DNA from: Bacteroidia bacterium
GTDB lineage: Bacteria; Bacteroidota; Bacteroidia; 2-12-FULL-35-15
Reading direction: 5' to 3'
DNA length: 64,000 bases
Assembly (NCBI GenBank): GCA_036386835.1
Contig: DASVUX010000003.1
Location: 8,552 to 72,551 of the forward strand
The notes beneath the pieces are model-generated. The model saw only the letters and a list, made by a program, of their open reading frames with translations, was not told the DNA's origin and made no database searches. The first letter of the stretch is position 1, and every line of letters begins with the position of its first letter. This document shows, one piece after another, positions 30,371 to 53,283 of the stretch. The translations under genes were made by a program, and so were the position numbers.

Positions 30371-30811
30371 TTAATAAGTATGAATTTTGAAGCGGATGTT
30401 CATCCTGGTTGGTACAGGCTCCTGCGTGCATGTAGCCGGCATATAGAGTGGCATCAAACTTACAATTCGCTTAGCCTCGTTTTCAACTTCTTTGTCATTA
30501 ATCGGATCCAGTACTTTCAGAAAGGTTGATTTTCCATCTTTTTCAATCATATAGGAAAATTTCACCCATTCGTTGTCTTTGTGATTTTTAGCCGGGACCT
30601 TAAATTTAAAATCCTCGGTAATCAAAATCAATTCAGTAATAGTTGTGTCGGCAAATACAGGTTGAGTTTCCACATCCGTATAATTGTCCCTGCCAATTTC
30701 TTTATCAAAGACCGGTTTACATTTTTTGATCCGTCCTTTTACATTTTGCTGGCAAAACAGGGTATTGACAATAAAAACCGTGAAACAAAGCGTTACGAGT
30801 TTATTCTTCAT
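30371..30811 (-). CDS. Secreted TonB-C-terminal-like domain protein (weak)
   Basis: Signal peptide. Pattern VETQPVF...FSYMIEKDGK...DKEVENEAKRIVSLMPLYMPA resembles the TonB C-terminal fold. Confidence 0.35.
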   Translation of the reverse strand: MKNKLVTLCFTVFIVNTLFCQQNVKGRIKKCKPVFDKEIGRDNYTDVETQPVFADTTITELILITEDFKFKVPAKNHKDNEWVKFSYMIEKDGKSTFLKVLDPINDKEVENEAKRIVSLMPLYMPATCTQEPVPTRMNIRFKIHTY

Positions 30812-30847
30812 AATTACTTTAGATTAACTTCTTTTGCATGTACCTGA

Positions 30848-32560
30848 TCAGATATTAAAAAAGGCCTTCATATCCTCCATCGTTTTGAACTCCTGGTCTA
30901 CCCTTTTCATTAAAATTTCTTTATCGCCATTTTTTATACCTGCAAAATCTTCAGCACGCAGGTAATGAAGCACGCCATCTTCAACCGTCCATAAGACATT
31001 ACTCGACTTTGGATCAAATGTAAAGCGCTGAACAGGATTCTTCACATAAGTATATATTCCGTTGCGTTTCTTGTCGGCAAGAAAAATCTCATAACATTTA
31101 ATTTTCTGTTCGTCCTGCTTAACAAAAACTGCATTGCTGCAGATCACTCCCTGCGGATAAACACTTGGGTGATCACAATTATAAATCCCGAAGCTGCTGA
31201 TCATAAAAACCCTCTTTACTTTCTGCTCTGCGCCCATAGCAGCAAGTTCGCGGTCACGATCCCTTTTCCATTTTGCAAGTGCTTCTTCCTGCTTTTTCTT
31301 TGCAGCCAGGATCTTTGCCTGGTATTCTTCCTCTATTTTCTTTTCCTCCTGCTTCCGTTTTTCAAGACTTGCAGAATACTTGTCGAATTTTTCCTGGAAA
31401 CCTTTCATTGCAGCTTCATAATTCTTGCCTTCAAACACCGGGTAGACCACCAGCTCTACCTTCCGGGAACCTTTGAGAAGGTGAAGCACATAACTCTCTT
31501 CGCTTTTGTTTAAAGTGGCATCCTCCCACAAGGTTTTGTTCAGGTCCGCCCAGACAGCTTTATTTATGCCTTTATTCTCCGGGCTTAATTCCCACTGAAC
31601 ATTCTTATAAACACTGAATTCAGGGAATTCTTTAAGATCGAGCTCAAGATTGAATGTGTATTTCTCTTTATTAAGCTTTGCAGGCTTAACAGGCTCTGGC
31701 GGAGAATCCGGAAGCGCAGCCAGCTGTGTTGTCATCTCCGTTTTTGCTTCGGCTTTCTCTTTCTCTATCTGCCTGTATTCCTGCAATTGTTCAAATTCCT
31801 GTTCCGGAGCTACATTAAGACTTGTCCCCGGTTTGTCCGCAGACACAACCACCTTTTCCTTGCCGAGACATGACCAGTTATTTTTCACTGTATCCAGCTT
31901 GTATAAATTATAATGTGTTCCCTGCTGTTCTGATGCAAGCTCAACATTTATAGTCTTACCGGCAGCCATTTCCACCTGCTTTCCGTCTTTATAGGCCAGC
32001 ATTTCCATCATTCCTGCAGATTCGAAATGATACCTTCGACCTGCGCTGTCATACGTCATCGGGATGCCGCTTACGAAAAAATCAGCTACATCATGAAACT
32101 CACGGTATCTCAATTCAATCTCCCCTTTCAGTGGTTTTCCGTCTGCACCGGCAAATGCATTTTCAGGCACTGTCAGCCTGGAGCCTGTCCCGAACTCAAA
32201 AGAGCCGCCCTTCTCTGCATTGACTTTATACACAACGTAGGGAACATTCAGGCCTTTAAGAGGCGGGGCGATGCATGGTTTTGCTTCTTCCGTTTTATAG
32301 AATTCCGACAAGCCGCTGTCTTCCTGTCCCTGGACTACCGGTGCAGTACTTTTAACGACTTCTTTTTTATCACCCAGGAGCAGGATAGTGGTCACCACTA
32401 CCGCAGTGAGAGCAACTACACCTGAAAGGAACCAGGGCTTTTTAAACAATGGTTTCTGAACCAGGGTTGATGAATTTTTCAAAACCGAATTAAAGTCTTT
32501 GCGCTGGCTGATCTCATCTGCACTTACTTCCTGGCGGTTAATGTTAATTTTTCGTTTCAT
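30848..32560 (-). CDS. Putative anti-sigma factor (single-pass membrane protein) cognate to the upstream ECF sigma factor
   Basis: Sits immediately downstream of the ECF sigma gene on the same strand. Short cytoplasmic N-terminus, one TM (WFLSGVVALTAVVVTTILLL), large periplasmic domain with coiled-coil. Not a FecR-type domain. Confidence 0.45.
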   Translation of the reverse strand: MKRKININRQEVSADEISQRKDFNSVLKNSSTLVQKPLFKKPWFLSGVVALTAVVVTTILLLGDKKEVVKSTAPVVQGQEDSGLSEFYKTEEAKPCIAPPLKGLNVPYVVYKVNAEKGGSFEFGTGSRLTVPENAFAGADGKPLKGEIELRYREFHDVADFFVSGIPMTYDSAGRRYHFESAGMMEMLAYKDGKQVEMAAGKTINVELASEQQGTHYNLYKLDTVKNNWSCLGKEKVVVSADKPGTSLNVAPEQEFEQLQEYRQIEKEKAEAKTEMTTQLAALPDSPPEPVKPAKLNKEKYTFNLELDLKEFPEFSVYKNVQWELSPENKGINKAVWADLNKTLWEDATLNKSEESYVLHLLKGSRKVELVVYPVFEGKNYEAAMKGFQEKFDKYSASLEKRKQEEKKIEEEYQAKILAAKKKQEEALAKWKRDRDRELAAMGAEQKVKRVFMISSFGIYNCDHPSVYPQGVICSNAVFVKQDEQKIKCYEIFLADKKRNGIYTYVKNPVQRFTFDPKSSNVLWTVEDGVLHYLRAEDFAGIKNGDKEILMKRVDQEFKTMEDMKAFFNI

Positions 32561-32649
32561 TTGAGTAATTATATATTCAATTTTGTTTTTTAATAATCAG
32601 TTCTGATGCCTGGTATAAACGTTAATCATCCTGCCAGCTTATACTGAAC

Positions 32650-33213
32650 CTATTTTATCATTTTCTTTAATTTTTCAAGAACCCGGTAAGTCTTCACCTT
32701 TGCATTATTTTCAGTGATCTCCAGGATCTCCGCTATTTCTTTGAATGCCCGTTTTTCAAAGAACCTCATTTCTATAAGCTGCAGCTCATCTTCCGGCAGT
32801 CCGGAAATTATCTCAACTATCTTATCATGATATTCTTCGATCTTACTTTCCTGGATCTCTTCTATAATATGATAAACACTTACGGATTCAATATTAACAG
32901 TTCTCTGCGCTTTTTCTGCCCGGTAAAGATTATTAACCTCGCTTGATGCGATCCGGTAAAGCCATGAAGCAAATGGCACACCGCGGAATTCATATTTATG
33001 AAGGTTACCCAGGGCTTTTAAAAAAGTTTGCTGTGCCGCATCAAAAGCCTGCTCCTTATCATCAAGGCGCTGGTAAATGAAGCGAAAGATCTGCTCATAG
33101 TATTTATCATAGATCGCAGCGAACCGTTCAGGGTTCTTCTTCGCAGCCTCAATAACCGTCTGCTCATGGGCAAGGTCGGCCGGTGTTGCATGATATTTTG
33201 ACGTTTGTAGCAT
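32650..33213 (-). CDS. RNA polymerase ECF-type sigma-70 factor
   Basis: Region 2 (FRFIYQRL...AFDAAQQTFLKAL) and region 4 HTH (AFKEIAEILEITENNAKVKTYRVLEKLK). Confidence 0.85.
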   Translation of the reverse strand: MLQTSKYHATPADLAHEQTVIEAAKKNPERFAAIYDKYYEQIFRFIYQRLDDKEQAFDAAQQTFLKALGNLHKYEFRGVPFASWLYRIASSEVNNLYRAEKAQRTVNIESVSVYHIIEEIQESKIEEYHDKIVEIISGLPEDELQLIEMRFFEKRAFKEIAEILEITENNAKVKTYRVLEKLKKMIK

Positions 33214-33291
33214 ATATTAATTTAAGCGTGATTCAATAACGATTTCCCTGCAAATCTCCTTTATAACGGAAACGCCCCGAAAAGATACAGA

Positions 33292-33711
33292 TTATCTTAA
33301 CCGGAACCTGATCGGGAGGTTGAACTGTACTTTTACCGGGGTGCCCGCCTTTTTTCCCGGGATGAACCCGGGCATCATGCCGATGACCCTGAGAGCCTCG
33401 GAATCACATTCGGGGCAACCCGGAATCCCCTTTATTACCCTTAATCCGCTTAGACTTCCATTTTCTGCCACTACAAATGTAATGTAAACAGTTCCTGAAA
33501 TCCCCTTTTCCAGGGCTGTACGCGGATAAACGAAATTCGAACTGATGAACGCCATTAATGCTTCTGTCCCACCCGGAAATTCGGGCATTTGTTCAACAAC
33601 GCTATAAACAGTGTCGGCCGGAAGCTTTTTTACTTTAATCGTACCAATTCCGTTTGTTTGTGCATAAGAGCTGAATGCAAGAGGAAGAAGACAAATGAAT
33701 AATGCCCGCAT
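33292..33711 (-). CDS. Secreted TonB C-terminal domain protein (no TM or proline-rich region)
   Basis: Signal peptide. EFPGGTEALMAFISSNFVYP...GISGTVYITFVVAENGSL...CDSEALRVIGMMPGFIPGKKAGTPVKVQFNLPIRF is the TonB_C signature. Confidence 0.65.
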   Translation of the reverse strand: MRALFICLLPLAFSSYAQTNGIGTIKVKKLPADTVYSVVEQMPEFPGGTEALMAFISSNFVYPRTALEKGISGTVYITFVVAENGSLSGLRVIKGIPGCPECDSEALRVIGMMPGFIPGKKAGTPVKVQFNLPIRFRLR

Positions 33712-33741
33712 AATTATATATTTGATAAAGGGGATGATATA

Positions 33742-34188
33742 TTACCTGAACTCTATTGGTAAGCGGATACTTGTGGCTGCGACCTTCCCATTCCGGGTAC
33801 CGGGGTTCCATGGCCCCATCAGCCTGATCAGCCTTAATGCTTCTGTATCACATTCACCGCAGCCGGGTACTCCCTGGCTGATTGCTATGCTCCCGATTTT
33901 TCCGTCAGGGAAAACAGTAAAAGAAGTATTACAGGTCCCGCTGATTTTTTTATTTTTCACTTTACCGGGAACCCTGATATTTTCCGCAATAAATTTCTTT
34001 AAAGCCGCATCGCCACCTTTATACTGAGCCGGGACAATTATCCATTCTGAACTCTGTTCAGTCCGTATATAAGCAGTATCAACTGATCCCGTTATTTTCC
34101 CCGGCTTTTTCACCCTCACTGTCCCGTGCTTCTCCTGCCCGGAGAGCGTTGCGCTCATCAGCAAAAAGATAATAAGGAGTGTTCTCAT
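33742..34188 (-). CDS. Secreted TonB C-terminal domain protein, tandem paralog
   Basis: Signal peptide. QYKGGDAALKKFIAENIRVP...ISGTCNTSFTVFPDGKIG...CDTEALRLIRLMGPWNPGTRNGKVAATSIRLPIEF. Confidence 0.65.
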   Translation of the reverse strand: MRTLLIIFLLMSATLSGQEKHGTVRVKKPGKITGSVDTAYIRTEQSSEWIIVPAQYKGGDAALKKFIAENIRVPGKVKNKKISGTCNTSFTVFPDGKIGSIAISQGVPGCGECDTEALRLIRLMGPWNPGTRNGKVAATSIRLPIEFR

Positions 34189-37565: not shown

Positions 37566-39254
37566 ATGAAAAAACATTTACTATTTTTCCTGCTCATCCT
37601 GCTCAACCTGCATCCTGTTAAGTCCCAGGATAAAAACAATGTCCCTGGCGAATTACTGGTGATGCTTAATCCTGCAGCAAGTCCTTATAAGATGCAGTCG
37701 GATCTCTCCGTTTTAAAGGATAAAAATACGCGTCTGAACATTACACGCACGCTGTCTGCAAGCATGCACATCTACTTGATGACATTTGACCACCTCAGCA
37801 TTCACGAAGATCTGATGCTGAATGCCGTGAGAAGCTATCCCGGTGTTCAGATCGCACAGTTCAATCATTATGTGAATGAACGGAATACCGTTCCAAACGA
37901 TCCGCAATTCGGTGTAATGTGGGGTATGGAGAACACAGGTACCAATGGTGGTGCCGGAGCTGTAGCTGATGCAGATATTGATGCGACAACTGCATGGGAT
38001 GTAACCACGGGAGGCCTGACCTCTGCGGGTGATACAATAGTGGTTGCCGTGATTGACGGAGGTTTTTCCTTAACCCATCCCGATCTTATTGATAATTACT
38101 GGAGAAATTATGACGAGATCCCGGACAACGGGGTTGATGATGATCTCAATGGCTATATTGATGATTTTAACGGATGGCATTCTTCCTCCAACAGCGATAA
38201 TTTTCCCTCACAAAGCCATGGTACCCATGTGGCCGGGACCATTGGTGCCAAAGGGAATAATGGCATCGGGGTTACAGGCGTGAACTGGAATGTAAAAATA
38301 ATGCCGATCAGCTACGGATCAGGCTCAGGGTCGTTTGAGTCGAACGTAGTGGAAGCTTACGCTTTTGCGAGAGACCAGCGCAGGGAATATGATCTCAGCA
38401 ATGGAACCAAAGGTGCTTTTGTAGTAGCTACCAACTCTTCTTTCGGGGTGGACCTAGCTTCACCTTCTTCTTATCCTTTATGGTGCGCCATGTATGATTC
38501 CCTTGGTGTGCTTGGGATTCTCAGCGCAGGCGCCACTGCAAATGCCAACTATGATGTGGATGCACAGGGTGATATCCCCACTGCATGTCCAAGCGATTGG
38601 CTTATCACTGTAACTAACTTAAAAAGCAATGATACAAAAGCAAATGCAGGTTTCGGAGCTTCGATGATCGACCTGGGCGCACCGGGAACCAATATTACAT
38701 CCACCTATTACAGTACGAGCAGCGGGTCAAACAATTATAATTCCAGTTCAGGAACATCGATGGCAACCCCGCATGTTGCCGGTACAATCGGATTACTCTT
38801 CTCTGTGCCCTGCCCTCATTTCATCCTGAATTACAAAGCGGATCCGGCAGGCATGGCTTTGATCATAAAAGATTCAATCCTGGGTTCCACCGACCCGGTA
38901 GCAGCGCTTGATGGAATAACCCTTACAGGCGGACGCCTTAACCTCAACAAGGCAGTTAAATCTATTCAGAATTATTGTGCCGCAACATCTGTGTCTGAAA
39001 TCAGCCACAATTCAAATCAATCAGGAATCTCCAGGGTGTATCCCAATCCCGCTGATCAAAGTGTGTTTGTCGAGCTAAATGCTGATCAGAACAGCAACTT
39101 AATCATCACAAATGTTTTGGGACAGGAAATCAAAAAAATTGAAGTAAAGGCTGCGGATAAAATGATTATTAATATCAGCGAACTTGAAAAAGGTGTTTAC
39201 TTGTTCAGTCTTGAAAATAGCCCTGGGCGCGCTGTTAAATTAATTGTTCACTAG
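37566..39254 (+). CDS. S8 family subtilisin-like serine peptidase with T9SS C-terminal sorting domain
   Basis: D (VAVIDGG), H (HGTHVAGTIGA), S (GTSMATPHVAGTIGLL). Signal peptide. C-terminal RVYPNPADQSVFVELN...GVYLFSLE CTD. Confidence 0.85.
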   Translation: MKKHLLFFLLILLNLHPVKSQDKNNVPGELLVMLNPAASPYKMQSDLSVLKDKNTRLNITRTLSASMHIYLMTFDHLSIHEDLMLNAVRSYPGVQIAQFNHYVNERNTVPNDPQFGVMWGMENTGTNGGAGAVADADIDATTAWDVTTGGLTSAGDTIVVAVIDGGFSLTHPDLIDNYWRNYDEIPDNGVDDDLNGYIDDFNGWHSSSNSDNFPSQSHGTHVAGTIGAKGNNGIGVTGVNWNVKIMPISYGSGSGSFESNVVEAYAFARDQRREYDLSNGTKGAFVVATNSSFGVDLASPSSYPLWCAMYDSLGVLGILSAGATANANYDVDAQGDIPTACPSDWLITVTNLKSNDTKANAGFGASMIDLGAPGTNITSTYYSTSSGSNNYNSSSGTSMATPHVAGTIGLLFSVPCPHFILNYKADPAGMALIIKDSILGSTDPVAALDGITLTGGRLNLNKAVKSIQNYCAATSVSEISHNSNQSGISRVYPNPADQSVFVELNADQNSNLIITNVLGQEIKKIEVKAADKMIINISELEKGVYLFSLENSPGRAVKLIVH

Positions 39255-39324: not shown

Positions 39325-39837
39325 TTACATCGGCATGCTGCTTACTGCCTGCAAGTTAAGAACTGCATCTCTCTCATTGTTCTGGTGACCTGCATACACT
39401 GCTTTTGCACTGTAGTCAGAAATTGTCCAGTGTGAGTTAAGTCGCACAAACGGCTTAAATCCAAAGCTCATCACCAGTCTTTTACGGCCGTCAACAGTAA
39501 TTGTATTCCATTTACCGGTAACACTTCTTTTGCTGCCGCGCGCAATCACCACATCATTTGGTGTGAATTCGAAAACATAATCTCTGAACATATCAGTGTT
39601 ATTTGTTTTCATCGCTACTTCTCCATCCTCAAAATTTGAGATCACCCATTTTGAGTTACAAAGTGTACGTTCAAAATTGTTCTGGTCAGGCGCATTTTTA
39701 CGCTCGGCCGGTTGAGCTGTTTCCGCCTGGTCTGCGATGTTGATCGGACGCGGGCGGATATCTTGTTTTTCACATGCGGCAAAAATAGTTGCCATACTTA
39801 ATACTGCAATTGCTAAGTGTTTTGAGTTCGTTTTCAT
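39325..39837 (-). CDS. Small secreted lipoprotein, paralog 1 of a tandem family of three
   Basis: Lipobox SMATIFAAC. About 40% identity to the two upstream paralogs. Start at internal ATG (MKTNSKHLAI). Confidence 0.55.
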   Translation of the reverse strand: MKTNSKHLAIAVLSMATIFAACEKQDIRPRPINIADQAETAQPAERKNAPDQNNFERTLCNSKWVISNFEDGEVAMKTNNTDMFRDYVFEFTPNDVVIARGSKRSVTGKWNTITVDGRKRLVMSFGFKPFVRLNSHWTISDYSAKAVYAGHQNNERDAVLNLQAVSSMPM

Positions 39838-39873
39838 TTGGTTCTCCTTTCTAATTAAATTAATATCTTGAAT

Positions 39874-39881
39874 CAAAATTA
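39874..39881 (-). promoter_or_regulatory. Bacteroidota sigma-A -7 element TAATTTTG for lipoprotein paralog 1
   Basis: Minus strand reads TAATTTTGattcaagatattaatttaattagaaaggagaaccaaATG. Same block repeated upstream of paralog 3. Confidence 0.4.
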
Positions 39882-39983
39882 CATCGGCAAATGGCCTTTA
39901 TTGTGCTAAAATCGATAAGCATACTTTTCTTGTCGCTAATATATGATTAGAAAAAGCCAGCATAATTTTTGGGAAATTAAGCG

Positions 39984-40025
39984 CAAAAAAAACGCTTATG
40001 CATAGGCATAAGCGTTTTTATAAAT
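39984..40025. terminator. Bidirectional terminator (perfect palindrome)
   Basis: aaaaaaaa-cgcttatgc-atag-gcataagcg-ttttta. Confidence 0.55.
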
Positions 40026-40036
40026 CATAATATATA

Positions 40037-40516
40037 TTACTTGTTTTTCACTTCGAACATAAGGCTACCGGTCATCCCATCGCTTGCGTTCTTATCTTCC
40101 AGAATTTTTACTGACGGTGAATGTCTTACAACTGTCCATGAATTATTTAGTTCATTGAAAGGAACAACATCACCAAAACTTAAACGTAGTTCATTACGTT
40201 CCCCTCTGTACCATTTACCGTTTACACGTTTCGTACCATTGGTTGCATAAAGCATTCCGCCATTTTCAAAAACAAATGTCCATCCGGTAAACTTACCTGC
40301 CTTGTTTTCGGTGTCTTTTACTCCACCTGTCTTTTGCGAATAAAGTGAGCTGATGACCCAGTTTGCAGGTTTGGTTTCCTTGTCATCATCAAGGTTATGC
40401 GGTGTAGCCACAGCGGTTGATTCCTGCATAGGTCTTATTTTCTCTTTTGTACAGCTCATAAAAGCTGTTGCCAGTGTAATCAAAACTATACTTAGTTTTT
40501 TTGCGTTCGTTTCCAT
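40037..40516 (-). CDS. Small secreted lipoprotein, paralog 2
   Basis: METNAKKLSIVLITLATAFMSC lipoprotein signal. Homologous to the flanking paralogs (NGKWY..R..LRLSFG...PFNELN.SWTV motif). The display shows a 9-nt block near 40521, so coordinates may be off by 1. Confidence 0.5.
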   Translation of the reverse strand: METNAKKLSIVLITLATAFMSCTKEKIRPMQESTAVATPHNLDDDKETKPANWVISSLYSQKTGGVKDTENKAGKFTGWTFVFENGGMLYATNGTKRVNGKWYRGERNELRLSFGDVVPFNELNNSWTVVRHSPSVKILEDKNASDGMTGSLMFEVKNK

Positions 40517-40541
40517 TTTTCTATTTTTTAAAATTAATATC

Positions 40542-41018
40542 TTATTTAATTCTTTCGAAGATGAGTGAACCTTTTCTTCCATCGTCACCTAAATCATCTT
40601 CCAATACTTTATAGTCATCCGTTTGTTTTACAATCAGCCATGTTTCATTCAATTCCATGAATGGTTCCTGTCCACCGAAGTCAATGAACATACGGCCGGT
40701 CCCATCACTGTATTTGGAAGACCATCTTCCCTTAACTTTTCCTGATTTACCGCTCGCGATCACAGTTCCATCTGCATGAAATGCAAAAGCCCAATCCCTG
40801 AATTTTTCAGTTTCATCACTTTCCATTTCTCCAGTTACATATAGCTTGGTTACTTTCCATGTGCTGGTTTCCTGCGGAGGGTTTACTTTTGAGAGGGAGG
40901 TTTGAGTAGGTTTTGGCCTTGGCCCATTCATCGGGTTAAGGTCTTCTTTTTTACAGCTTGTTACAAAGCCGGCAACAGCCAGCATAAAGATTGCTAAAGT
41001 TTTTGCGTTCGTTTTCAT
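40542..41018 (-). CDS. Small secreted lipoprotein, paralog 3
   Basis: MKTNAKTLAIFMLAVAGFVTSC lipoprotein signal. Same 5' leader peptide and upstream DNA as paralog 1. Confidence 0.55.
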   Translation of the reverse strand: MKTNAKTLAIFMLAVAGFVTSCKKEDLNPMNGPRPKPTQTSLSKVNPPQETSTWKVTKLYVTGEMESDETEKFRDWAFAFHADGTVIASGKSGKVKGRWSSKYSDGTGRMFIDFGGQEPFMELNETWLIVKQTDDYKVLEDDLGDDGRKGSLIFERIK

Positions 41019-41054
41019 TTGGTTCTCCTTTCTAATTAAATTAATATCTTGAAT

Positions 41055-41062
41055 CAAAATTA
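41055..41062 (-). promoter_or_regulatory. TAATTTTG -7 element for lipoprotein paralog 3
   Basis: Identical ~45-bp block to that upstream of paralog 1 (ttggttctcctttctaattaaattaatatcttgaatcaaaatta). Confidence 0.4.
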
Positions 41063-41149: not shown

Positions 41150-41190
41150 ATAAAAAAAAGCCCCGCGTTTGCGGGGCTTTTTTTTATATA
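41150..41190. terminator. Bidirectional rho-independent terminator downstream of hppA
   Basis: aaaaaaaa-gccccgc-gttt-gcggggc-ttttttttt. Confidence 0.65.
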
Positions 41191-41200
41191 AAAATTTCTA

Positions 41201-43645
41201 TTAATGCTTTTCTGCACATGCGTCACCACATTTCTTTGCGCATTCTTCCTTTGTAGTGCAACCATGCGTACATCCATCATTGCAGGCTTTGTCACCATGA
41301 TGATCGCATGTTTTCCCTGCTTCACCTTTACAACAATCTTTTCCTTCGCCTTTACCTGCATGTTCAACACACATTGCTTTTTGTTCAGGAGTACATCCAA
41401 CTGAATCACAATAAGCAGCACACTCCTCCTTGGTCATGCTCATGCATTTCTGCATATCACAAGCCGGGTTCATTGCTTTCATTTTACAGCATTCCGATGT
41501 TGCAGCCGGGGCGCAGGCACCATGAGCGCTGTCGCTGTTTACCGCGATGTATGGAGCGATAACCAGGGAAACAATGGACATTAATTTAATAAGGATATTC
41601 ATTGAAGGACCGGAAGTATCTTTAAACGGATCACCTACAGTATCTCCTGTTACGGAAGCTTTGTGCGGCTCTGACTTTTTATAGAACATTTCCCCGTTGA
41701 TCAATACTCCTTTTTCAAAAGATTTTTTTGCGTTGTCCCATGCCCCACCGGCATTCGACTGGAATATACCCATAAGAACACCTGAAACAGTAACACCTGC
41801 TAAAAGGCCTCCGAGAACTTCCGGGCCAAAAATAAAACCAACCAGTACGGGTGTGATAAGAGCAATAGCGCCCGGCATCATCATTTCGCGGATAGATGCT
41901 TTTGTTGATATAGCTACGCATTTTTCATATTCCGGCTTTGCTTTATATTCCATGATCCCCGGAATTTCGCGGAACTGGCGTCTAACTTCCTGCACCATAT
42001 CCATTGCCGCTTTACCTACCGCCTGGATACATAAAGCAGAGAAAATAAAAGGAATCATACCGCCTACAAATAAACCTGCTAAAACCGGGGCCTTGTAAAT
42101 ATCAATAGCATCGATTCCTGCAATACCTACAAATGCCGCGAATAAAGCAAGGGATGTTAAAGCTGCCGAAGCGATGGCAAAACCTTTACCTGTTGCAGCT
42201 GTAGTATTACCAACAGCATCAAGGTTATCTGTACGTTCACGCACTTCAGGGGGAAGCTGGCTCATTTCTGCAATCCCTCCTGCGTTATCAGCAATAGGAC
42301 CGAAAGCATCGATCGCTAACTGCATGGCGGTTGTTGCCATCATACCTGCTGCTGCAATTGCAACACCATAAAGGCCTGCAAAATAATAAGATGCCATGAT
42401 CCCGGCAGCAAGCGTAAGAATTGGAATAACAGTGGATTTCATACCTACTGACAAACCGCCAATAATGTTTGTGGCGTGACCGGTTGAAGACTGCTGAATG
42501 ATAGACAGAACAGGAGCTTTCCCCATTGCGGTATAATATTCGGTAACGATACTCATGATCGCCCCTACCACTGTTCCCACAACAATAGCAAGAAACACAT
42601 TCAATCTTGAGAACTCATATCCGCGAAGGCTTAATGTTTCCGGAAGCATCCACATTACAATAAAGTAAGAAGCTGCAACAGTAAGAAGCATCGAAGCCCA
42701 GTTACCCATGTTAAGGGCGTTCTGAACATTTGATTTTTCGTCTTTAATAGTAACGAACCAGGTACCTACAATTGAAAATACGATACCTAAACCGCAGATT
42801 ACCATTGGTAATAATATCGGGGACATTCCGCCAAAATTATCAAGCACAACGATCTCTTGTCCTAATACCATCGTAGCAAGGATTGTTGCAACATATGAAC
42901 CGAAAAGATCGGCTCCCATACCTGCAACGTCACCTACGTTATCTCCCACGTTGTCTGCAATAGTAGCAGGATTACGGACATCATCTTCCGGGATACCTGC
43001 CTCTACCTTACCTACAAGATCGGCCCCTACGTCAGCAGCCTTTGTATAGATACCGCCACCAACACGGGCAAATAAAGCGATTGACTCCGCGCCCAATGAA
43101 AAGCCGGTTAATACTTCAATTGAAGTTTTTACCGTATCCGGACCAAGGTCGCTGAATATATTTAAAAAAATAATGAACAGACCGCCTAAACCAAGTACTG
43201 CAAGACCTGCAACTCCAAGCCCCATCACGGTTCCACCGGTAAATGATACTTTTAAAGCTTTTGCAAGGCTTGTACGGGCTGCCTGGGTGGTACGCACATT
43301 TGCTTTGGTTGCAACTTTCATCCCGATATATCCCGCAGTAGCGGAAAATACTGCTCCTATTATAAAAGAAATAGAGATAATCCAGCTGGAGTGGATCGGT
43401 TTCCCGTTCACTTCATGGATTGTTCCCGAATACGCCAATAAAATAGCAGCGAAAAGAACAAAAATGCTCAGAACCTTCCATTCTGCTTTCAAAAAAGCCA
43501 TTGCACCATCAGCAATGTAACCTGCAAGTTCCTGCATGTTCTTATCGCCTGCATCCTGCTTGCTAACCCAAGCGCTCTTAATTGCCATTACCAGCAATCC
43601 CAGGACCCCTAAAGCGGGCACCAAATAAATCACGTATTCGTTCAT
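41201..43645 (-). CDS. hppA: Membrane-bound proton-translocating pyrophosphatase (H+-PPase) with a ~109-aa cysteine-rich C-terminal extension
   Basis: Residues 1-705 are a canonical H+-PPase ([27 protein letters not shown], 15-16 TM). The ORF continues in frame through [32 protein letters not shown]...[27 protein letters not shown] (about 18 Cys, 5 His). Confidence 0.85.
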
Positions 43646-49128: not shown

Positions 49129-52100
49129 ATGAAAAAAATATTTGCCTTACTCCTGTTTTCGGCATTGATCCTTAACTGTTTTAAAGCGGCTGCACAATTC
49201 AACCGCAGGGATACAAAAAAGAATTCCCCCTATAAAACGAACTATCAAAGAGTTTCTGCAGGATGCTTTTCAGCCTATACACTTGAAATACGGCAAGGAA
49301 CGCTTTGGTCCTGGGGATTTAATTATTGGGGCCAATTAGGAGATGGCACTACAACTGAAAGACACAGTCCTGTTCAGATTGGCACTGACAATAAATGGGT
49401 AAATATCTCGATGGGCCAGGCATTTAGTTTTGGATTAAAGTCCGATGGAACTCTTTGGGCATGGGGCCGGAATGAATACGGACATTTGGGGGACGGGACA
49501 GTTATTAACCGGCATAGCCCGGTTCAGGTGGGCAGCGATAATAAGTGGATAAGTATTTCTTCCGGTACCAGTCACTGTCTTGGTATAAAATCAGATGGTA
49601 CATTATGGTCCTGGGGATTAAATCTGAGCGGACAGGTTGGTGATGGTTCTACTACCGAACGCCATAACCCGGTGCAAATAGGGACCGCAAACAACTGGAC
49701 ATCTGTTTTTGGTGGCGGGGACCGGTCGTTTGCACTGAAATCTGACGGCACACTCTGGGCATGGGGAGAGAACTATTGGGGCCAGCTGGGAGACGGCACG
49801 AATGCGGATAAAACAAGCCCTGTACAAATTGGAACCGACACGAAATGGACAAGAATTTCCAATGGTAACACACACACATTAGGATTAAAATCTGATGGTA
49901 CCCTTTGGGCATGGGGATATAATATTACCGGAGCCCTGGGTGACGGCACAACTACAAATAGAAATAATCCGGTACAAATCGGAACTGCTAACAATTGGGT
50001 AGATGTTTCTGCCGGCTGGGGACATAGCCTCGCTTTAAAATCGGATGGCAGTCTTTGGTCATGGGGATATAATGCCAGCGGGGAATTGGGAAATGGAACC
50101 GGACCCGGAATCAATGCACCTGCCAGGGTGGGCACTGATAATAATTGGGTAACTATAACAACCGGCCATAGCTATAGTCTGGGTTCAAAATCAAATGGCA
50201 CACTCTGGGCATGGGGGGATAACAGCAATGGTCAACTGGGTGATGGGACAATCATTAACAGGTCTACCCCTGTGCAAATAAGTATTGTTCCAAATGCATG
50301 GGTAACTGTTGATGGAGGCGGTTCCCATACGCTGGGAGTAAAATCCAATGGCAGCTTATGGTCCTGGGGAAATAATAATTCCTGGCAATCAGGAGATGCA
50401 ATATATACTCAAAGAAGTTTTCTTATTCAAATAGGAACTGATCTGAATTGGGTCGGAATAAAAGGTGGCAAAAATCATAGTCTCGGTCTACAATCAGATG
50501 GTAGTCTTTGGGCATGGGGAAATAATTCATATGGTCAGTTAGGAGTCGGAGATACATTATCCAGGACTAACCCGGTTCAAGTCGGAACTGAACAAAGCTG
50601 GAGCAGTATTGCTGCCGGAGAAAATCATTCGCTTGGCTTAAAAGCTAATGGCACTCTCTGGTCCTGGGGGGATAATACTTATGGTCAATTAGGGGATGCT
50701 ACCACAACGACCAGAACAAGTCCCGTACAAGTAGGAACTGATAATAAATGGATAAGTATAGCCACCGGATCGTATCATAGTTTGGGTTTAAAAGCAAACG
50801 GAACCCTTTGGGCATGGGGAAATAATTCAGGCGGACAATTAGGGAATGGAACTGTGATAAATGAACTCACGCCTGTCCAGGTGGGTATTGAAAATAAATG
50901 GATAAGTATTGCTTCAGATTCTGTGCATACCCTGGGAATGAAATCAGATGGTACAATATGGGCATGGGGAAATAATAATCTCGGGCAATTAGGGGACGGT
51001 ACTACACTAATGAGAACAAGCCCTCTGCAAATCGGAACAGATACAAAATGGCTGCTTATCGAAACAGGTAATTTTCATTCTTTAGGCCTGCAATCCGATG
51101 GTAACTTATGGACATGGGGAGGCAATGGAAAAGGAGAATTAGGGGATGGTACCTACATTTTCAAGACCAGCCCTGCACAAATAGGAACAAACAATGATTG
51201 GGTCGCACTAGCCGGAGGCGGACACCATACTATTGCCCTGAAATCGGAGAGGAATCAATTTTGTTCAACGGGATTTAATTCAAACGGTCAATTAGGTGAT
51301 GGCACCCTTGTAAACAAAAACACCTTGGTATGCAATACAAATTGTTATCCACCACCCCCGCCATTAAATACAACCCCGGCAGCCAGTTTAACTATTTGCA
51401 GCGGAAACAGCATAACGTTAACTGCCACCGGATCAGGCACCCTGCGTTGGTATAACTCCGCTGTGGCCGGAACCCCTGTTGGAACAGGAGGATCTTATAC
51501 GACACCGGTGTTAACAGCAAGTACCACTTATTACGTGGAAGATAGTACAGGGGTACCGAGCTTGGTCAGAACAGCAATAGCAGTTACTGTTAATCCGGCT
51601 CCGCCAATACCCACTATAAGTTTAAGCGGACCCGCTGTTTTCTGTGATGGAAATTCGGTAATACTTACTTCAAGTAGTTCTGCTGCTTATTTATGGAGTA
51701 ATGGAGCAACTACCCAAAGCATTACTATAACCTCCTCAACAAATGATTCCGTCAGAATCACTGATGCAAACGGCTGCTCTTCAACTTCAGCCCCTGTAGC
51801 CATAACCGTTAATCCCAACCCAAATGTCATTATTACTCCTGATGGGCCAACTGCTTTCTGCATCGGAGGAAACGTAACGCTTGATGCAGGGAGTGGATTT
51901 GTAACCTATCAATGGGCAAGCGGTCCCACTTCGCAAATGATCACCTTGTCCTATACAACCCATGATTCGGTTACTGTTACTGATATAAATGGCTGTTCTT
52001 CCTCTGCATCCATTAATGTTATATCAAGCCCGGTGCCTGTGCTCATCATTAATGATCCTGCTGAAATTTGTTCTTCCGGTTTTATAAACATCTCTTCTCC

Positions 52101-53283
52101 GGCCATCACTGCAGGAAGCTCGGGTGGAACTTTGAGCTATTGGCAGGACCAGGGTGCAACAATTCCCCTAAACCCTTCTTTTTACACTGCTGCAGACACC
52201 AGTGGAACCTACTATATTCAATTGAGTAATCCGGGGTGTTCAGTAATCCAACCGGTAAATATCCTGATCAATAACAATTGTGTCTGGCCCGGAGACGCTA
52301 ACCACGACTCCATCGTAAACAATTCTGATCTTCTGCCGATAGGTCTCCATTATTCCCAGGCGGGAGCTCCACGGGCAAGCGTAAGCAACTTATGGCAGGA
52401 TTATATTTCTGCAAACTGGGGCACATCACAAATTAACGGTTCAGATATTAAACATGCAGACTGTAATGGAGATGGCCTTATTGACAACAGTGATACGCTG
52501 GCCGTCAATCTTAATTTCAGCTCTACGCATGCAATTGTAGTTAACAATCATGATATTGAGCGACTGACTGATCCTGAGATCCATTTTGTTACAAACAGCA
52601 ATATCTATAATGCAGGCGATTGGATAGACATCGAAGTTCATACAGGAAGATCCGCAATCCCGGTTACTGAATTGTATGGACTTGCATTCAATATTTATTA
52701 TGATGCTTCATTAGTAGAACCCGGAACTGAAAGCCTCACATATCCTGCGGGCTGGTTGGGAACTCCTGCAACAAACTTGATCACAATTTCCAGGATCGAA
52801 CCTTTTGCTTCGACTGCTTTCGGTGGCATCACACGCATTGATCACCTGAACCAAAGCGGCTATGGAGAGATCGCAAACTTAAGGTTCCAGGCGGCTAGCT
52901 CAATCACTTCCCCGGTAGTGCTGCATTTTGCAATTTCAGGCTATACAGCCAATGATTCTGCAGGATCCCCACTGGTATTCAATACGGCTGATGATTCAAT
53001 TACTATCACTCCCCTAGCAACGGATATTACAGAAAAAGCAAATAGCCCTTCCGTTTTAGTTCATCCTAACCCTTTTAGTGAAGAAACAACAATTTCATTT
53101 ACTGAAGAACAAAAGAACTGTATTGTAAGAATAATGGATGTGCTCGGGAAAGAAACAAGAACCATCAGATTTTCAGGTAAGAAATTAGTAATTCAAAAAG
53201 AGGAAATGCTGAGGGGAATCTATTTTGTGGAGATCACATGCGGGAATGAGAATGTGATCAATAAGAAGATTGTCGTACAGTAA
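49129..53283 (+). CDS. RCC1-repeat beta-propeller protein with Ig-like, dockerin-like and cohesin-like modules and a T9SS C-terminal sorting domain
   Basis: About 20 copies of a ~53-aa RCC1 repeat (GDGT...R..PVQIG....W..I..G..HSLGLKSDGTLWAWG.N..GQLGDGT). Ig-like domains. Dockerin-like Ca-binding repeats (GDANHDSIVNNSDL, DCNGDGLIDNSD). Cohesin-like segment. C-terminal VHPNPFSEETTISF...GIYFVEI CTD. Confidence 0.85.
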   Translation: MKKIFALLLFSALILNCFKAAAQFNRRDTKKNSPYKTNYQRVSAGCFSAYTLEIRQGTLWSWGFNYWGQLGDGTTTERHSPVQIGTDNKWVNISMGQAFSFGLKSDGTLWAWGRNEYGHLGDGTVINRHSPVQVGSDNKWISISSGTSHCLGIKSDGTLWSWGLNLSGQVGDGSTTERHNPVQIGTANNWTSVFGGGDRSFALKSDGTLWAWGENYWGQLGDGTNADKTSPVQIGTDTKWTRISNGNTHTLGLKSDGTLWAWGYNITGALGDGTTTNRNNPVQIGTANNWVDVSAGWGHSLALKSDGSLWSWGYNASGELGNGTGPGINAPARVGTDNNWVTITTGHSYSLGSKSNGTLWAWGDNSNGQLGDGTIINRSTPVQISIVPNAWVTVDGGGSHTLGVKSNGSLWSWGNNNSWQSGDAIYTQRSFLIQIGTDLNWVGIKGGKNHSLGLQSDGSLWAWGNNSYGQLGVGDTLSRTNPVQVGTEQSWSSIAAGENHSLGLKANGTLWSWGDNTYGQLGDATTTTRTSPVQVGTDNKWISIATGSYHSLGLKANGTLWAWGNNSGGQLGNGTVINELTPVQVGIENKWISIASDSVHTLGMKSDGTIWAWGNNNLGQLGDGTTLMRTSPLQIGTDTKWLLIETGNFHSLGLQSDGNLWTWGGNGKGELGDGTYIFKTSPAQIGTNNDWVALAGGGHHTIALKSERNQFCSTGFNSNGQLGDGTLVNKNTLVCNTNCYPPPPPLNTTPAASLTICSGNSITLTATGSGTLRWYNSAVAGTPVGTGGSYTTPVLTASTTYYVEDSTGVPSLVRTAIAVTVNPAPPIPTISLSGPAVFCDGNSVILTSSSSAAYLWSNGATTQSITITSSTNDSVRITDANGCSSTSAPVAITVNPNPNVIITPDGPTAFCIGGNVTLDAGSGFVTYQWASGPTSQMITLSYTTHDSVTVTDINGCSSSASINVISSPVPVLIINDPAEICSSGFINISSPAITAGSSGGTLSYWQDQGATIPLNPSFYTAADTSGTYYIQLSNPGCSVIQPVNILINNNCVWPGDANHDSIVNNSDLLPIGLHYSQAGAPRASVSNLWQDYISANWGTSQINGSDIKHADCNGDGLIDNSDTLAVNLNFSSTHAIVVNNHDIERLTDPEIHFVTNSNIYNAGDWIDIEVHTGRSAIPVTELYGLAFNIYYDASLVEPGTESLTYPAGWLGTPATNLITISRIEPFASTAFGGITRIDHLNQSGYGEIANLRFQAASSITSPVVLHFAISGYTANDSAGSPLVFNTADDSITITPLATDITEKANSPSVLVHPNPFSEETTISFTEEQKNCIVRIMDVLGKETRTIRFSGKKLVIQKEEMLRGIYFVEITCGNENVINKKIVVQ

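What the first reader, a model, noticed from the sequence alone, without database searches (positions are those of the whole stretch)
41201..41530. H+-translocating pyrophosphatase carrying a ~109-aa cysteine-rich, Csp/metallothionein-like C-terminal tail
A canonical ~705-aa membrane PPase continues in frame, with no stop, into a soluble tail with about 18 Cys and 5 His. The cysteines are arranged in CxxxC/CxxxCxxxC spacings ([25 protein letters not shown] pairs). This resembles four-helix-bundle copper-storage (Csp/DUF326) or metallothionein-type metal-binding modules. Depending on membrane topology the tail is at the cytoplasmic or periplasmic face. Fusion of an ion pump to a thiolate metal-binding domain is not an architecture I know for H+/Na+-PPases. 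It could indicate metal or redox regulation of the pump, or a metal-buffering function.
Basis: partly seen in the sequence, partly recalled or inferred. Interest (0 to 1): 0.7.

Follow-up and report, generated by a model that had tools for sequence, protein, structure and literature searches.

The report
Proton-pumping pyrophosphatase with periplasmic cysteine-rich tail
A membrane pyrophosphatase ion pump from an uncultured Bacteroidia bacterium really does end in a 112-residue cysteine-, methionine- and lysine-rich tail that faces the periplasm; hundreds of related Bacteroidota species share this tail, it matches no described protein family, and it most likely binds metal ions, although that is not shown.

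Summary
One 814-aa ORF (41201-43645, minus strand) holds a complete membrane pyrophosphatase (aa 1-702) and a 112-aa tail with 18 Cys, 6 His and no hydrophobic segment. A TAA stop and a strong terminator follow.

It is not a sequencing error. The identical protein occurs on 7 independently assembled contigs. All 120 best homologues carry comparable tails. A conserved six-cysteine module (C-x4-C-x7-C-x3-C-x4-C-x7-C) is encoded in at least 509 species-level genomes, including cultured Flavobacterium, and always at a PPase C-terminus in the 80 loci examined. It is under purifying selection (dN/dS about 0.15).

The pump has the gate signature of the Flavobacterium johnsoniae-type K+-dependent H+-PPase (E5.43, no Glu at 6.53/6.57).

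The tail follows TM16 directly, so it lies in the periplasm next to the ion exit. A YceI fusion and lipoprotein-anchored stand-alone copies support this.

It is not a Csp/DUF326 or metallothionein homologue: there are no Pfam, NCBIfam or PDB matches, and the prediction gives two small helical modules joined by disordered linkers.

Composition suggests soft-metal binding, which is inferred, not shown: Cys 14%, Met 10%, near-universal CC pairs, His-rich ends in some lineages, and odd Cys counts as common as even. It is a new variant of a known pump with an undescribed domain.

The parts
41201..43645 (-). Whole gene: 814-aa membrane pyrophosphatase with C-terminal tail (NCBI HEX8514622.1, uncultured Bacteroidia bacterium)
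41540..43645 (-). Pump core, aa 1-702: a complete 16-helix membrane PPase
   Evidence: Pfam PF03030 aa 14-696, 897 bits. Aligns to VrPPase 4A01 residues 75-758 and TmPPase 4AV3.
43085..43087 (-). Glu187 at gate position 5.43, which is Ser in V. radiata. Together with Gly249 (6.53) and Ala253 (6.57) this is the F. johnsoniae-type H+-PPase signature.
   Evidence: PMC6882861 Table 1; PMC10897367
42194..42211 (-). GNTTAA motif (aa 479-484). The Ala rather than Lys marks a K+-dependent enzyme.
   Evidence: the A/K rule is discussed in PMC10897367
41540..41602 (-). TM16 (aa 682-702, [21 protein letters not shown]). It starts just after the cytoplasmic catalytic motif [10 protein letters not shown] (aa 667-676), contains gate Lys16.50, and ends at the periplasmic face.
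   Evidence: PMC5150537 gives the order hydrolytic centre, gate, exit channel
41204..41539 (-). Tail, aa 703-814: 18 Cys, 6 His, 6 Met, 14 Lys. The highest 15-residue hydropathy is 0.37, so there is no further membrane helix.
41483..41497 (-). First CC doublet (SECCK, aa 717-721). An E/D-CC motif upstream of module A is found in most relatives.
   Evidence: CC in 156 of 158 unique tails; [ED]CC in 103
41369..41461 (-). Module A, aa 729-759: [31 protein letters not shown], with spacing C-x4-C-x7-C-x3-C-x4-C-x7-C. It is predicted as a three-helix mini-domain and is the conserved hallmark of the tail.
   Evidence: (mean pLDDT 83.9)
41285..41368 (-). Gly/Lys/Glu/His-rich linker, aa 760-787, with the second CC doublet (DCCKG, 770-774). 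It is predicted disordered and varies in length and repeat number among relatives.
41204..41284 (-). Module B, aa 788-814: [27 protein letters not shown], with spacing C-x3-C-x3-C-x5-C-x3-C-x3-C. Two short helices are predicted. It is present in about 60% of the close relatives.
41150..41187 (-). Intrinsic terminator (17-bp stem with 7 G-C pairs, followed by a T run) starting 14 nt after the stop codon

Best explanation
The finding is the periplasm-facing C-terminal extension of a K+-dependent, Flavobacterium johnsoniae-type H+-pumping membrane pyrophosphatase.

Shown:
- The tail is translated, conserved and under purifying selection.
- It is a lineage-wide feature of this PPase subfamily in Bacteroidota.
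- It consists of a short N-terminal linker carrying a CC pair, then a six-Cys three-helix module A (aa 729-759), a flexible Gly/Lys/Glu/His linker with a second CC pair, and a six-Cys two-helix module B (aa 788-814).
- It belongs to no described family.

Inferred from established pump structure and from fusion partners:
- It sits in the periplasm, tethered beside the ion exit channel.

Inferred from composition only (the proposed mechanism):
- The tail acts as a membrane-anchored binder of soft metal ions, with Cu(I) and/or Zn(II)/Cd(II) the most likely.
- Ligands would be Cys thiolates, the CC pairs, Met thioethers and, in some lineages, His-rich ends.
- It would serve as a periplasmic metal buffer or as a metal-sensing appendage of the pump.
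- The two small modules would be held in shape by the same cysteines, through metal-thiolate clusters and/or a few disulfides.
For: Reality and conservation:
- The identical protein is on 7 independent contigs.
- All 120 best homologues (81-91% identical) have tails of 84-193 aa.
- Module A is encoded in at least 509 species-level genomes. In all 80 loci fetched it sits at the end of a PPase reading frame, including five Flavobacterium genome assemblies not labelled as MAGs.
- dN/dS is 0.15-0.17.
- A terminator lies directly after the stop codon.

Pump type:
- E5.43/G6.53/A6.57/A12.46 is found in the window protein and in all but one of the 189 other tail-bearing full-length PPases examined; the exception has Asp at 5.43 (PMC6882861; PMC10897367).

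Periplasmic side:
- The tail begins right after TM16, which runs from the cytoplasmic catalytic motif through the gate Lys to the exit (PMC5150537).
- There is no further hydrophobic segment.
- One relative continues into a YceI domain, a periplasmic family (PF04264, 2e-38).
- Stand-alone copies of module A sit behind a lipoprotein signal peptide or two TM helices.
- A review reports OmpA-like domains at the same position in other mPPases (PMC11210485).

Metal binding:
- Across 158 unique tails the composition is Cys 13.6%, Met 9.8%, Lys 13.3%, His 3.7%, with almost no Leu, Ile, Phe, Trp or Arg.
- CC doublets occur in 156 of 158 tails.
- Cys counts are odd in 88 tails and even in 70, so the cysteines cannot all be paired within one chain.
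- Linkers vary by gain and loss of CCK-type repeats and Met-rich stretches. In some lineages the Cys-rich end is replaced by His/Asp/Glu-rich ends such as HADGHEHGEDGHDHGDHQH. What is kept is ligand chemistry rather than sequence.
- The only Cys of module A ever lost singly is replaced by Met in 5 of 10 cases.
Against: - No metal-binding family matches by sequence or fold.
- No metal-homeostasis gene lies near the PPase or near the stand-alone copies.
- In the oxidising periplasm of aerobes, twelve cysteines at fixed spacings could simply form six structural disulfides. Modules A and B each have an even number (six).
- The conserved Met residues of module A could be core residues rather than ligands.
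- There is no obvious reason why a PPi-driven proton pump should carry a metal binder.
- The coordinates of the predicted models were not available, so S-S distances could not be inspected.
Confidence: 0.42

Rival explanations
1. The tail is a disulfide-knotted structural or interaction domain. Modules A and B would be small helical domains, each locked by three disulfides made by the periplasmic oxidation machinery. They would stabilise the pump dimer or dock a periplasmic partner or the further domains fused behind them (YceI; the Flavobacterium beta/alpha domain). No metal would be involved.
For: Each module has six cysteines at fixed spacings. Module A is predicted with confidence as a compact three-helix unit. 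The only PDB sequence match, which is not significant, is a three-disulfide three-helix pheromone, Er-10 (E = 0.11). Module A serves as a connector to other periplasmic domains. The hosts include aerobes such as Flavobacterium.
Against: Total Cys counts are odd in 88 of 158 tails. Cys2 of module A is lost on its own in 10 of 244 copies, which would leave a partnerless Cys. This reading does not explain the 10% Met, the near-universal CC pairs, the expanding CCK repeats, or the replacement of Cys-rich ends by His-rich ends.
Confidence: 0.3
2. The tail is a redox switch. Reversible oxidation of its thiols next to the exit channel, possibly including disulfides between the two chains of the dimer, would tune proton pumping to periplasmic redox state or oxygen.
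For: The tail starts at the periplasmic end of TM16, beside the exit channel (PMC5150537). An odd number of Cys per chain would become even in the homodimer. Proximity of the two C-termini in the dimer is the subject of a study cited (Liu et al. 2009), which I did not read.
Against: There is no direct evidence. The long disordered linkers and variable length (84-243 aa in complete tails) fit a precise gating device poorly. Stand-alone copies without a pump exist.
Confidence: 0.13
3. The tail is a true homologue of Csp/DUF326 copper-storage proteins or of bacterial metallothionein.
For: There are CxxxC spacings and a high Cys content. Some relatives carry an extra insert rich in CxxxCxxxC.
Confidence: 0.03
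4. The tail is an artefact: a lost or mis-sequenced stop codon, a frameshift, or a separate small Cys-rich gene.
For: None, apart from a 722-aa database entry (P0038).
Against: P0038 ends where its contigs end. The 814-aa product is identical on 7 contigs from different samples. The tail is present in all relatives examined and is under purifying selection. A terminator follows the real stop.
Confidence: 0.01

Closest known systems
Flavobacterium johnsoniae K+-dependent H+-PPase (membrane PPase subfamily with the gate glutamate at 5.43)
   Same: The pump core has Glu at 5.43, no Glu at 6.53 or 6.57, and Ala at 12.46 (PMC6882861 Table 1; PMC10897367). Other Flavobacterium species' PPases carry module A.
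   Different: I could not retrieve the F. johnsoniae sequence itself, so I do not know whether the enzyme that was characterised carries the tail. None of the papers I could read mentions one.
Membrane PPases with other C-terminal periplasmic extensions (OmpA-like domain in Paucibacter and other Burkholderiales; review PMC11210485)
   Same: An extra soluble domain is appended directly after TM16 of a complete pump, on the periplasmic side.
   Different: The domain is unrelated (a peptidoglycan-binding fold versus Cys-rich helical mini-modules), and the PPase subfamily (K+-independent) and phylum differ.
Csp1/Csp3 copper storage proteins (DUF326) and bacterial metallothioneins
   Same: High Cys content with CxxxC spacings, and possibly thiolate-based binding of soft metals.
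   Different: There is no sequence or fold relationship. The tail is not a four-helix bundle, it is tethered to a pump, and it is also rich in Met and Lys.
Cys/His-rich tails of metal transporters (di-Cys C-terminal extension of plant HMA4, PMC6255694; Met/His-rich extracellular N-terminus of Ctr1, from general knowledge)
   Same: A flexible, ligand-rich terminal extension of a membrane transporter with repeated CC or Met motifs. This is an analogy of design only.
   Different: Those transporters move the metal that their tails bind, and the HMA4 tail is cytosolic. A PPase pumps H+ or Na+ and has no known link to periplasmic metals.
Small disulfide-rich helical domains of oxidising compartments (Cox17/CHCH twin-Cx9C proteins; Euplotes pheromone Er-10)
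   Same: A short helical domain with conserved Cys in an extracytoplasmic compartment. As in Cox17, a CC pair lies upstream of the folded module. There is a weak, non-significant profile hit to Er-10 (E = 0.11).
   Different: The Cys spacing is C-x4-C-x7-C-x3-C-x4-C-x7-C, not twin Cx9C or Cx3C, and there is no detectable homology.

Membership tests
Membrane-integral pyrophosphatase (Pfam PF03030, H_PPase) | Full-length match above the curated threshold | tested here: met
   897 bits against a cut-off of 29.7; profile positions 1-645 of 645
Membrane-integral pyrophosphatase (Pfam PF03030, H_PPase) | 16-helix core with catalytic Asp/Lys motifs that can be aligned to solved structures | tested here: met
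   Aligns to 4A01 (residues 75-758) and 4AV3 (residues 17-725). [29 protein letters not shown] and [10 protein letters not shown] are all present.
K+-dependent H+-PPase of the F. johnsoniae type | Ala (not Lys) at 12.46 in GNTT(A/K)A | tested here: met
   GNTTAA at aa 479-484
K+-dependent H+-PPase of the F. johnsoniae type | Semi-conserved gate Glu at 5.43 and absent from 6.53 and 6.57 | tested here: met
   E187 aligns with S5.43 of VrPPase; G249 is at 6.53 and A253 at 6.57 (PMC6882861 Table 1)
K+-dependent H+-PPase of the F. johnsoniae type | PPi-driven H+ (not Na+) transport | not testable with these tools
   Needs a vesicle transport assay
Na+-translocating PPase (the database name; NCBIfam NF001955) | Score above the model's cut-off | tested here: met
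   1268 bits against a cut-off of 1059. The match ends at profile position 705 of 736.
Na+-translocating PPase (the database name; NCBIfam NF001955) | Gate Glu at 6.53, which forms the Na+ site | tested here: not met
   Gly at 6.53 (PMC6882861, PMC5150537)
Csp / DUF326 copper storage protein | Sequence match to the family model | tested here: not met
   No Pfam or NCBIfam hit for the window tail at E <= 10, and none matching the Cys-rich region for six other tails or stand-alone module-A proteins at E <= 1
Csp / DUF326 copper storage protein | Four-helix bundle with Cys lining the core | tested here: not met
Csp / DUF326 copper storage protein | Binds many Cu(I) ions | not testable with these tools
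   Needs metal titration
Metallothionein | Match to a metallothionein family model | tested here: not met
Metallothionein | Small protein, very Cys-rich, few aromatic residues, with Cys-Cys and Cys-x-Cys motifs | tested here: inconclusive
   Cys 16%, one Tyr, and two CC pairs, but no CxC motif. The tail is also part of an 814-aa membrane protein and contains predicted helices.
Metallothionein | Metal-thiolate clusters | not testable with these tools
   Needs spectroscopy or metal analysis
CHCH / Cox17-like (twin Cx9C) or small-Tim-like (twin Cx3C) | Two Cx9C or two Cx3C motifs on an antiparallel helical hairpin | tested here: not met
   The spacing is C-x4-C-x7-C-x3-C-x4-C-x7-C

The most novel reading that the evidence does not exclude
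A whole subfamily of Bacteroidota proton-pumping pyrophosphatases carries a previously undescribed periplasmic domain family. This domain would act as a membrane-tethered, metallothionein-like Cu(I)/Zn(II) binder placed at the ion exit of the pump. Periplasmic metal load (or thiol redox state) would then directly gate or protect a primary ion pump. That would be a new link between PPi energetics and metal homeostasis, and a new type of bacterial periplasmic metal-binding module.
Probability: 0.3. Interest if true: 0.7.

Novelty: new variant of a known kind. Interest (0 to 1): 0.5.

Why it matters
Membrane pyrophosphatases are treated as single-domain 16-helix pumps, and no regulatory or accessory domain on the periplasmic face has been studied. 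Here one subfamily, the one with the unusual gate glutamate at 5.43, consistently carries a conserved Cys/Met-rich periplasmic appendage. That appendage has no Pfam, NCBIfam or PDB counterpart.

If it binds metals, it would be a new bacterial periplasmic metal-binding module and an unexpected link between metal or redox status and PPi-driven membrane energisation in abundant freshwater and soil Bacteroidota. If it is only a disulfide-locked connector, it is still an uncatalogued domain family worth a database entry. It would also matter to anyone who expresses these pumps heterologously, because 12-27 periplasmic cysteines will affect folding.

The finding also shows that the database name 'sodium-translocating' is probably wrong for this clade.

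Tried and rejected
- The word-indexed protein search, with the tail alone and with the module A alignment, returned only 8 and 33 short fragments. It seems to favour short entries and was of little use for counting contexts. The exhaustive profile search and the genome scan were informative instead.
- The PDB profile search gave only a non-significant hit to pheromone Er-10.
- Genomic context around four stand-alone module A genes and around the PPase in the window showed no metal, redox or Dsb genes, so context gives no functional lead.
- Literature searches found no description of the tail. The primary paper on the F. johnsoniae enzyme (Luoto et al. 2011) is not held, so I could not check whether the characterised enzyme has the tail.
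- A haem c attachment motif (CxxCH) is absent from all 158 tails, so I rejected a cytochrome-like reading.
- An extra transmembrane helix in the tail, which would flip it to the cytoplasm, is rejected on hydropathy.
- Model coordinates are not exposed by the tools, so Cys-Cys distances could not be used to separate disulfides from metal sites.
Full report
**Observation.** The minus strand carries a single 814-codon ORF (41201-43645) with an ATG start and a TAA stop. Pfam H_PPase covers residues 14-696 (E = 1e-269). The alignment to the solved Vigna radiata pump (4A01) runs from query residue 38 to 703, which is residue 758 of that 766-residue chain. A canonical enzyme would therefore end within about ten residues; this one continues for 112 more (aa 703-814, nt 41204-41539). 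The tail has 18 Cys, 6 His, 6 Met and 14 Lys, a single aromatic residue, and no Leu, Ile, Phe or Trp. The 702-residue body has only 3 Cys. The only numerical slip is 6 His rather than 5.

**Not an artefact.**
- An intrinsic terminator (17-bp stem, T run) starts 14 nt after the stop codon.
- Exactly the same 814-aa product is called on 7 independently assembled contigs from different samples. It is deposited as HEX8514622.1 from an uncultured Bacteroidia bacterium.
- The one shorter database version (P0038, 722 aa, 100% identical) ends where its two contigs end.
- All 120 best homologues (81-91% identical; P0038 is 100% identical) are 786-891 aa long, apart from the truncated P0038, and their complete tails are 84-193 residues with the same character.
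- For the conserved core of the tail, median dN/dS is 0.15-0.17 at dS of about 1.3. Cys codons alternate between TGT and TGC at every conserved position.

**The pump.** NCBIfam places the protein in NF001955, named 'sodium-translocating pyrophosphatase' (1268 bits, cut-off 1059). The residues that decide ion specificity say otherwise.
- In the alignment to VrPPase, Glu187 occupies position 5.43 (Ser in V. radiata). Position 6.53 is Gly and 6.57 is Ala.
- This is the arrangement listed for the Flavobacterium johnsoniae K+-dependent H+-PPase (PMC6882861 Table 1). It has been rationalised structurally as compatible with H+ pumping but not Na+ pumping (PMC10897367).
- GNTTAA (Ala at 12.46) marks K+ dependence.
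- The window protein and 188 of the 189 other tail-bearing full-length PPases I collected share this signature; the exception has Asp at 5.43.
The tail appears to be a trait of this particular subfamily.

**Anatomy of the tail.** Alignment of relatives and pattern counts show the following parts.
- A short variable segment that nearly always holds an (E/D)CC doublet.
- Module A, [23 protein letters not shown](T/S)PE(Q/E)KAMC, with spacing C-x4-C-x7-C-x3-C-x4-C-x7-C. It occurs once or twice per tail.
- A variable Gly/Lys/Glu/Met/His linker with further CC pairs and expandable 'K-A-C-C-K' repeats.
- In about 60% of close relatives, module B, CMEGCxHGCKTKEECxKxCGxxCAKKH (C-x3-C-x3-C-x5-C-x3-C-x3-C).

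The window protein has one A (aa 729-759) and one B (aa 788-814). Of 244 unique complete copies of module A, 233 keep all six Cys. The only Cys ever lost singly is the second, replaced by Met five times, Val four times and Ser once. AlphaFold2 predicts module A as three short helices with mean pLDDT 83.9 (82-86 within the longer construct). Module B is predicted as two helices with pLDDT 67-76, and everything between has pLDDT below 50 and is presumably disordered.

**Distribution.** In each of the 80 best loci it lies at the 3' end of a PPase reading frame. Most of these are uncultured Bacteroidia/Bacteroidota, but five Flavobacterium genome assemblies that are not labelled as MAGs are included: F. 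cellulosilyticum, F. buctense, F. adhaerens, and strains CYK-55 and J49. In these Flavobacterium genomes module A is followed by '(S/M)HYGADGKF', a CC pair and a small beta/alpha domain with no Pfam match.

An exhaustive profile search of 1.84 billion representative proteins gave only 72 hits, all short. Many visibly begin with PPase C-terminal sequence, and most of the rest look like partial tails. A few are genuine stand-alone proteins in which module A follows a lipoprotein signal peptide (P0194) or two TM helices plus CCK repeats (P0151, P0160, P0184, P0191). At least P0184 lies inside a 50-kb contig.

**Which side of the membrane.**
- The tail begins immediately after TM16.
- TM16 starts at the cytoplasmic catalytic motif [10 protein letters not shown] (aa 667-676), carries the gate Lys16.50 in 'NILIKLM', and ends at '...APYIAV'.
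- In the solved pumps the order from cytoplasm to periplasm or lumen is hydrolytic centre, coupling funnel, gate, exit channel (PMC5150537).
- No segment of the tail is hydrophobic enough to cross the membrane again (maximum 15-residue hydropathy 0.37).
- From the published crystal structures (Lin et al. 2012; Kellosalo et al. 2012; my knowledge, not re-read here) both termini of mPPases face the lumen or periplasm.
- Independent support comes from three sources: one relative (L029) continues from module A into a YceI domain, a periplasmic family (PF04264, E = 2e-38); the stand-alone forms are lipoprotein- or membrane-anchored; and a review describes OmpA-like domains at the same position in Burkholderiales mPPases (PMC11210485).
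- The tail is therefore periplasmic and tethered next to the ion exit.

**Comparison with known families.**
- The window tail gives no Pfam or NCBIfam hit even at E <= 10. Of six other tails or stand-alone proteins scanned at E <= 1, three gave no hit, one matched only YceI behind module A, and two gave only hits far below threshold.
- A module A profile finds no PDB chain except a non-significant match to the three-disulfide pheromone Er-10 (E = 0.11).
- Fold searches find nothing meaningful.
- It is therefore not a member of Csp/DUF326 or of any metallothionein family, and its predicted shape is not a four-helix bundle. The Cys spacing also rules out twin-Cx9C or twin-Cx3C folds.
- Seven literature searches returned only one paper that discusses C-terminal extensions of mPPases, and it does not mention a Cys-rich one (the paper is read).

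**How it most likely works.** What varies and what stays constant across 158 unique tails is informative.
- Composition is held at Cys 13.6%, Met 9.8%, Lys 13.3%, Glu 11.3% and His 3.7%, with almost no aliphatic or aromatic residues or Arg.
- CC pairs are nearly universal (156 of 158).
- Met-rich and CCK-repeat stretches expand and contract.
- In several lineages the Cys-rich end is replaced by His/Asp/Glu-rich ends.
- Cys totals are odd as often as even (88 versus 70), so the cysteines cannot all be paired within a chain. The one dispensable Cys of module A is often replaced by Met.

This is the pattern expected if ligand chemistry for soft metal ions is what selection maintains. I therefore favour a membrane-tethered periplasmic Cu(I)/Zn(II)-type binder that acts as a buffer or sensor, with confidence of about 0.4. 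The main rival, at about 0.3, is a purely disulfide-locked structural or connector domain. This is credible because each module has six Cys at fixed spacings and because module A links other periplasmic domains to the pump. A thiol redox switch acting on the nearby exit channel is a weaker third option. Gene neighbourhoods give no help. None of these functions can be decided computationally with the tools at hand.

**Verdict.**
- The specific Csp/metallothionein label is not supported as kinship, but the underlying idea of thiolate-based metal or redox chemistry remains the best guess.
- It is a new variant of a known pump that carries an uncatalogued domain family. It is already present, unremarked, in hundreds of public genomes.
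- Interest is moderate, at 0.5.

Noticed in passing
window 39325-41057 (-): Three tandem paralogous genes (171-183 aa) lie directly downstream of the PPase terminator. They have lipoprotein-like N-termini (…SCKKE, …SCTKE, …ACEKQ) and no Pfam match. The same three genes follow the PPase on the other contigs of this organism.
   Followed up: partly
window 37566-39254 (+): A subtilisin-like protease (Peptidase_S8) with a Por_Secre_tail, that is, a type IX secretion cargo. This confirms a Bacteroidota host.
   Followed up: partly
window 49129-53283 (+): A 1384-aa protein made of many 'GxLWxWGxNxxGQLGDG'-type repeats (RCC1-like by eye), with a C-terminus that looks like a type IX secretion sorting domain. 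It was not scanned against Pfam.
   Followed up: no
window 30371-34188 (-): Three small genes that each encode a TonB_C domain (146, 139 and 148 aa) flank an ECF-type sigma factor (32650-33213) and an unannotated 570-aa ORF.
   Followed up: partly
L029:862-3738 (+), tail at the 3' end: In this relative, module A is followed by a complete YceI-like domain (PF04264, E = 2e-38). This makes a three-part fusion of pump, Cys module and periplasmic lipid-binding domain.
   Followed up: partly
L052, L061, L070, L072, L075 (Flavobacterium genome assemblies), PPase 3' ends: Flavobacterium PPases have module A, then 'SHYGADGKF', a CC pair, and a roughly 45-aa domain '…VRVEITNNNGKAKATVTT…FEGTEAEVKAKVDALK' with no Pfam match. 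This is a second uncatalogued periplasmic add-on.
   Followed up: partly
L027, L031, L046, L060, L080 and P0122, tails: Some tails carry an extra insert of about 45 aa between modules A and B, 'CSQACMDKCKEMGIKCEKGCMGKCHEECESKGCKEC'. It is built of CxxxC repeats and also has no Pfam hit.
   Followed up: partly
P0194, P0184 (L082:6001-6576), P0151, P0160, P0191: Stand-alone module A proteins exist without a pump. They are anchored by a lipoprotein signal peptide or by two TM helices, and preceded by 'KKCCKSDST'-type repeats. Their neighbours (a thiol-activated cytolysin homologue, ComEC, RND efflux parts) suggest no common function.
   Followed up: partly
window 41369-41461 (-), module A: Module A looks like an internal duplication of a 14-residue unit C-D-x3-C-x7-C ([14 protein letters not shown] / [14 protein letters not shown]). 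Modules A and B share the 'TKEEC-x3-C' helix start. This was noted by eye only.
   Followed up: no
window 41201-43645 (-): The public annotation 'sodium-translocating' or 'K(+)-stimulated pyrophosphate-energized sodium pump' conflicts with the gate residues (E5.43, G6.53). NCBIfam model NF001955 is 736 positions long, but the match stops at position 705.
   Followed up: yes
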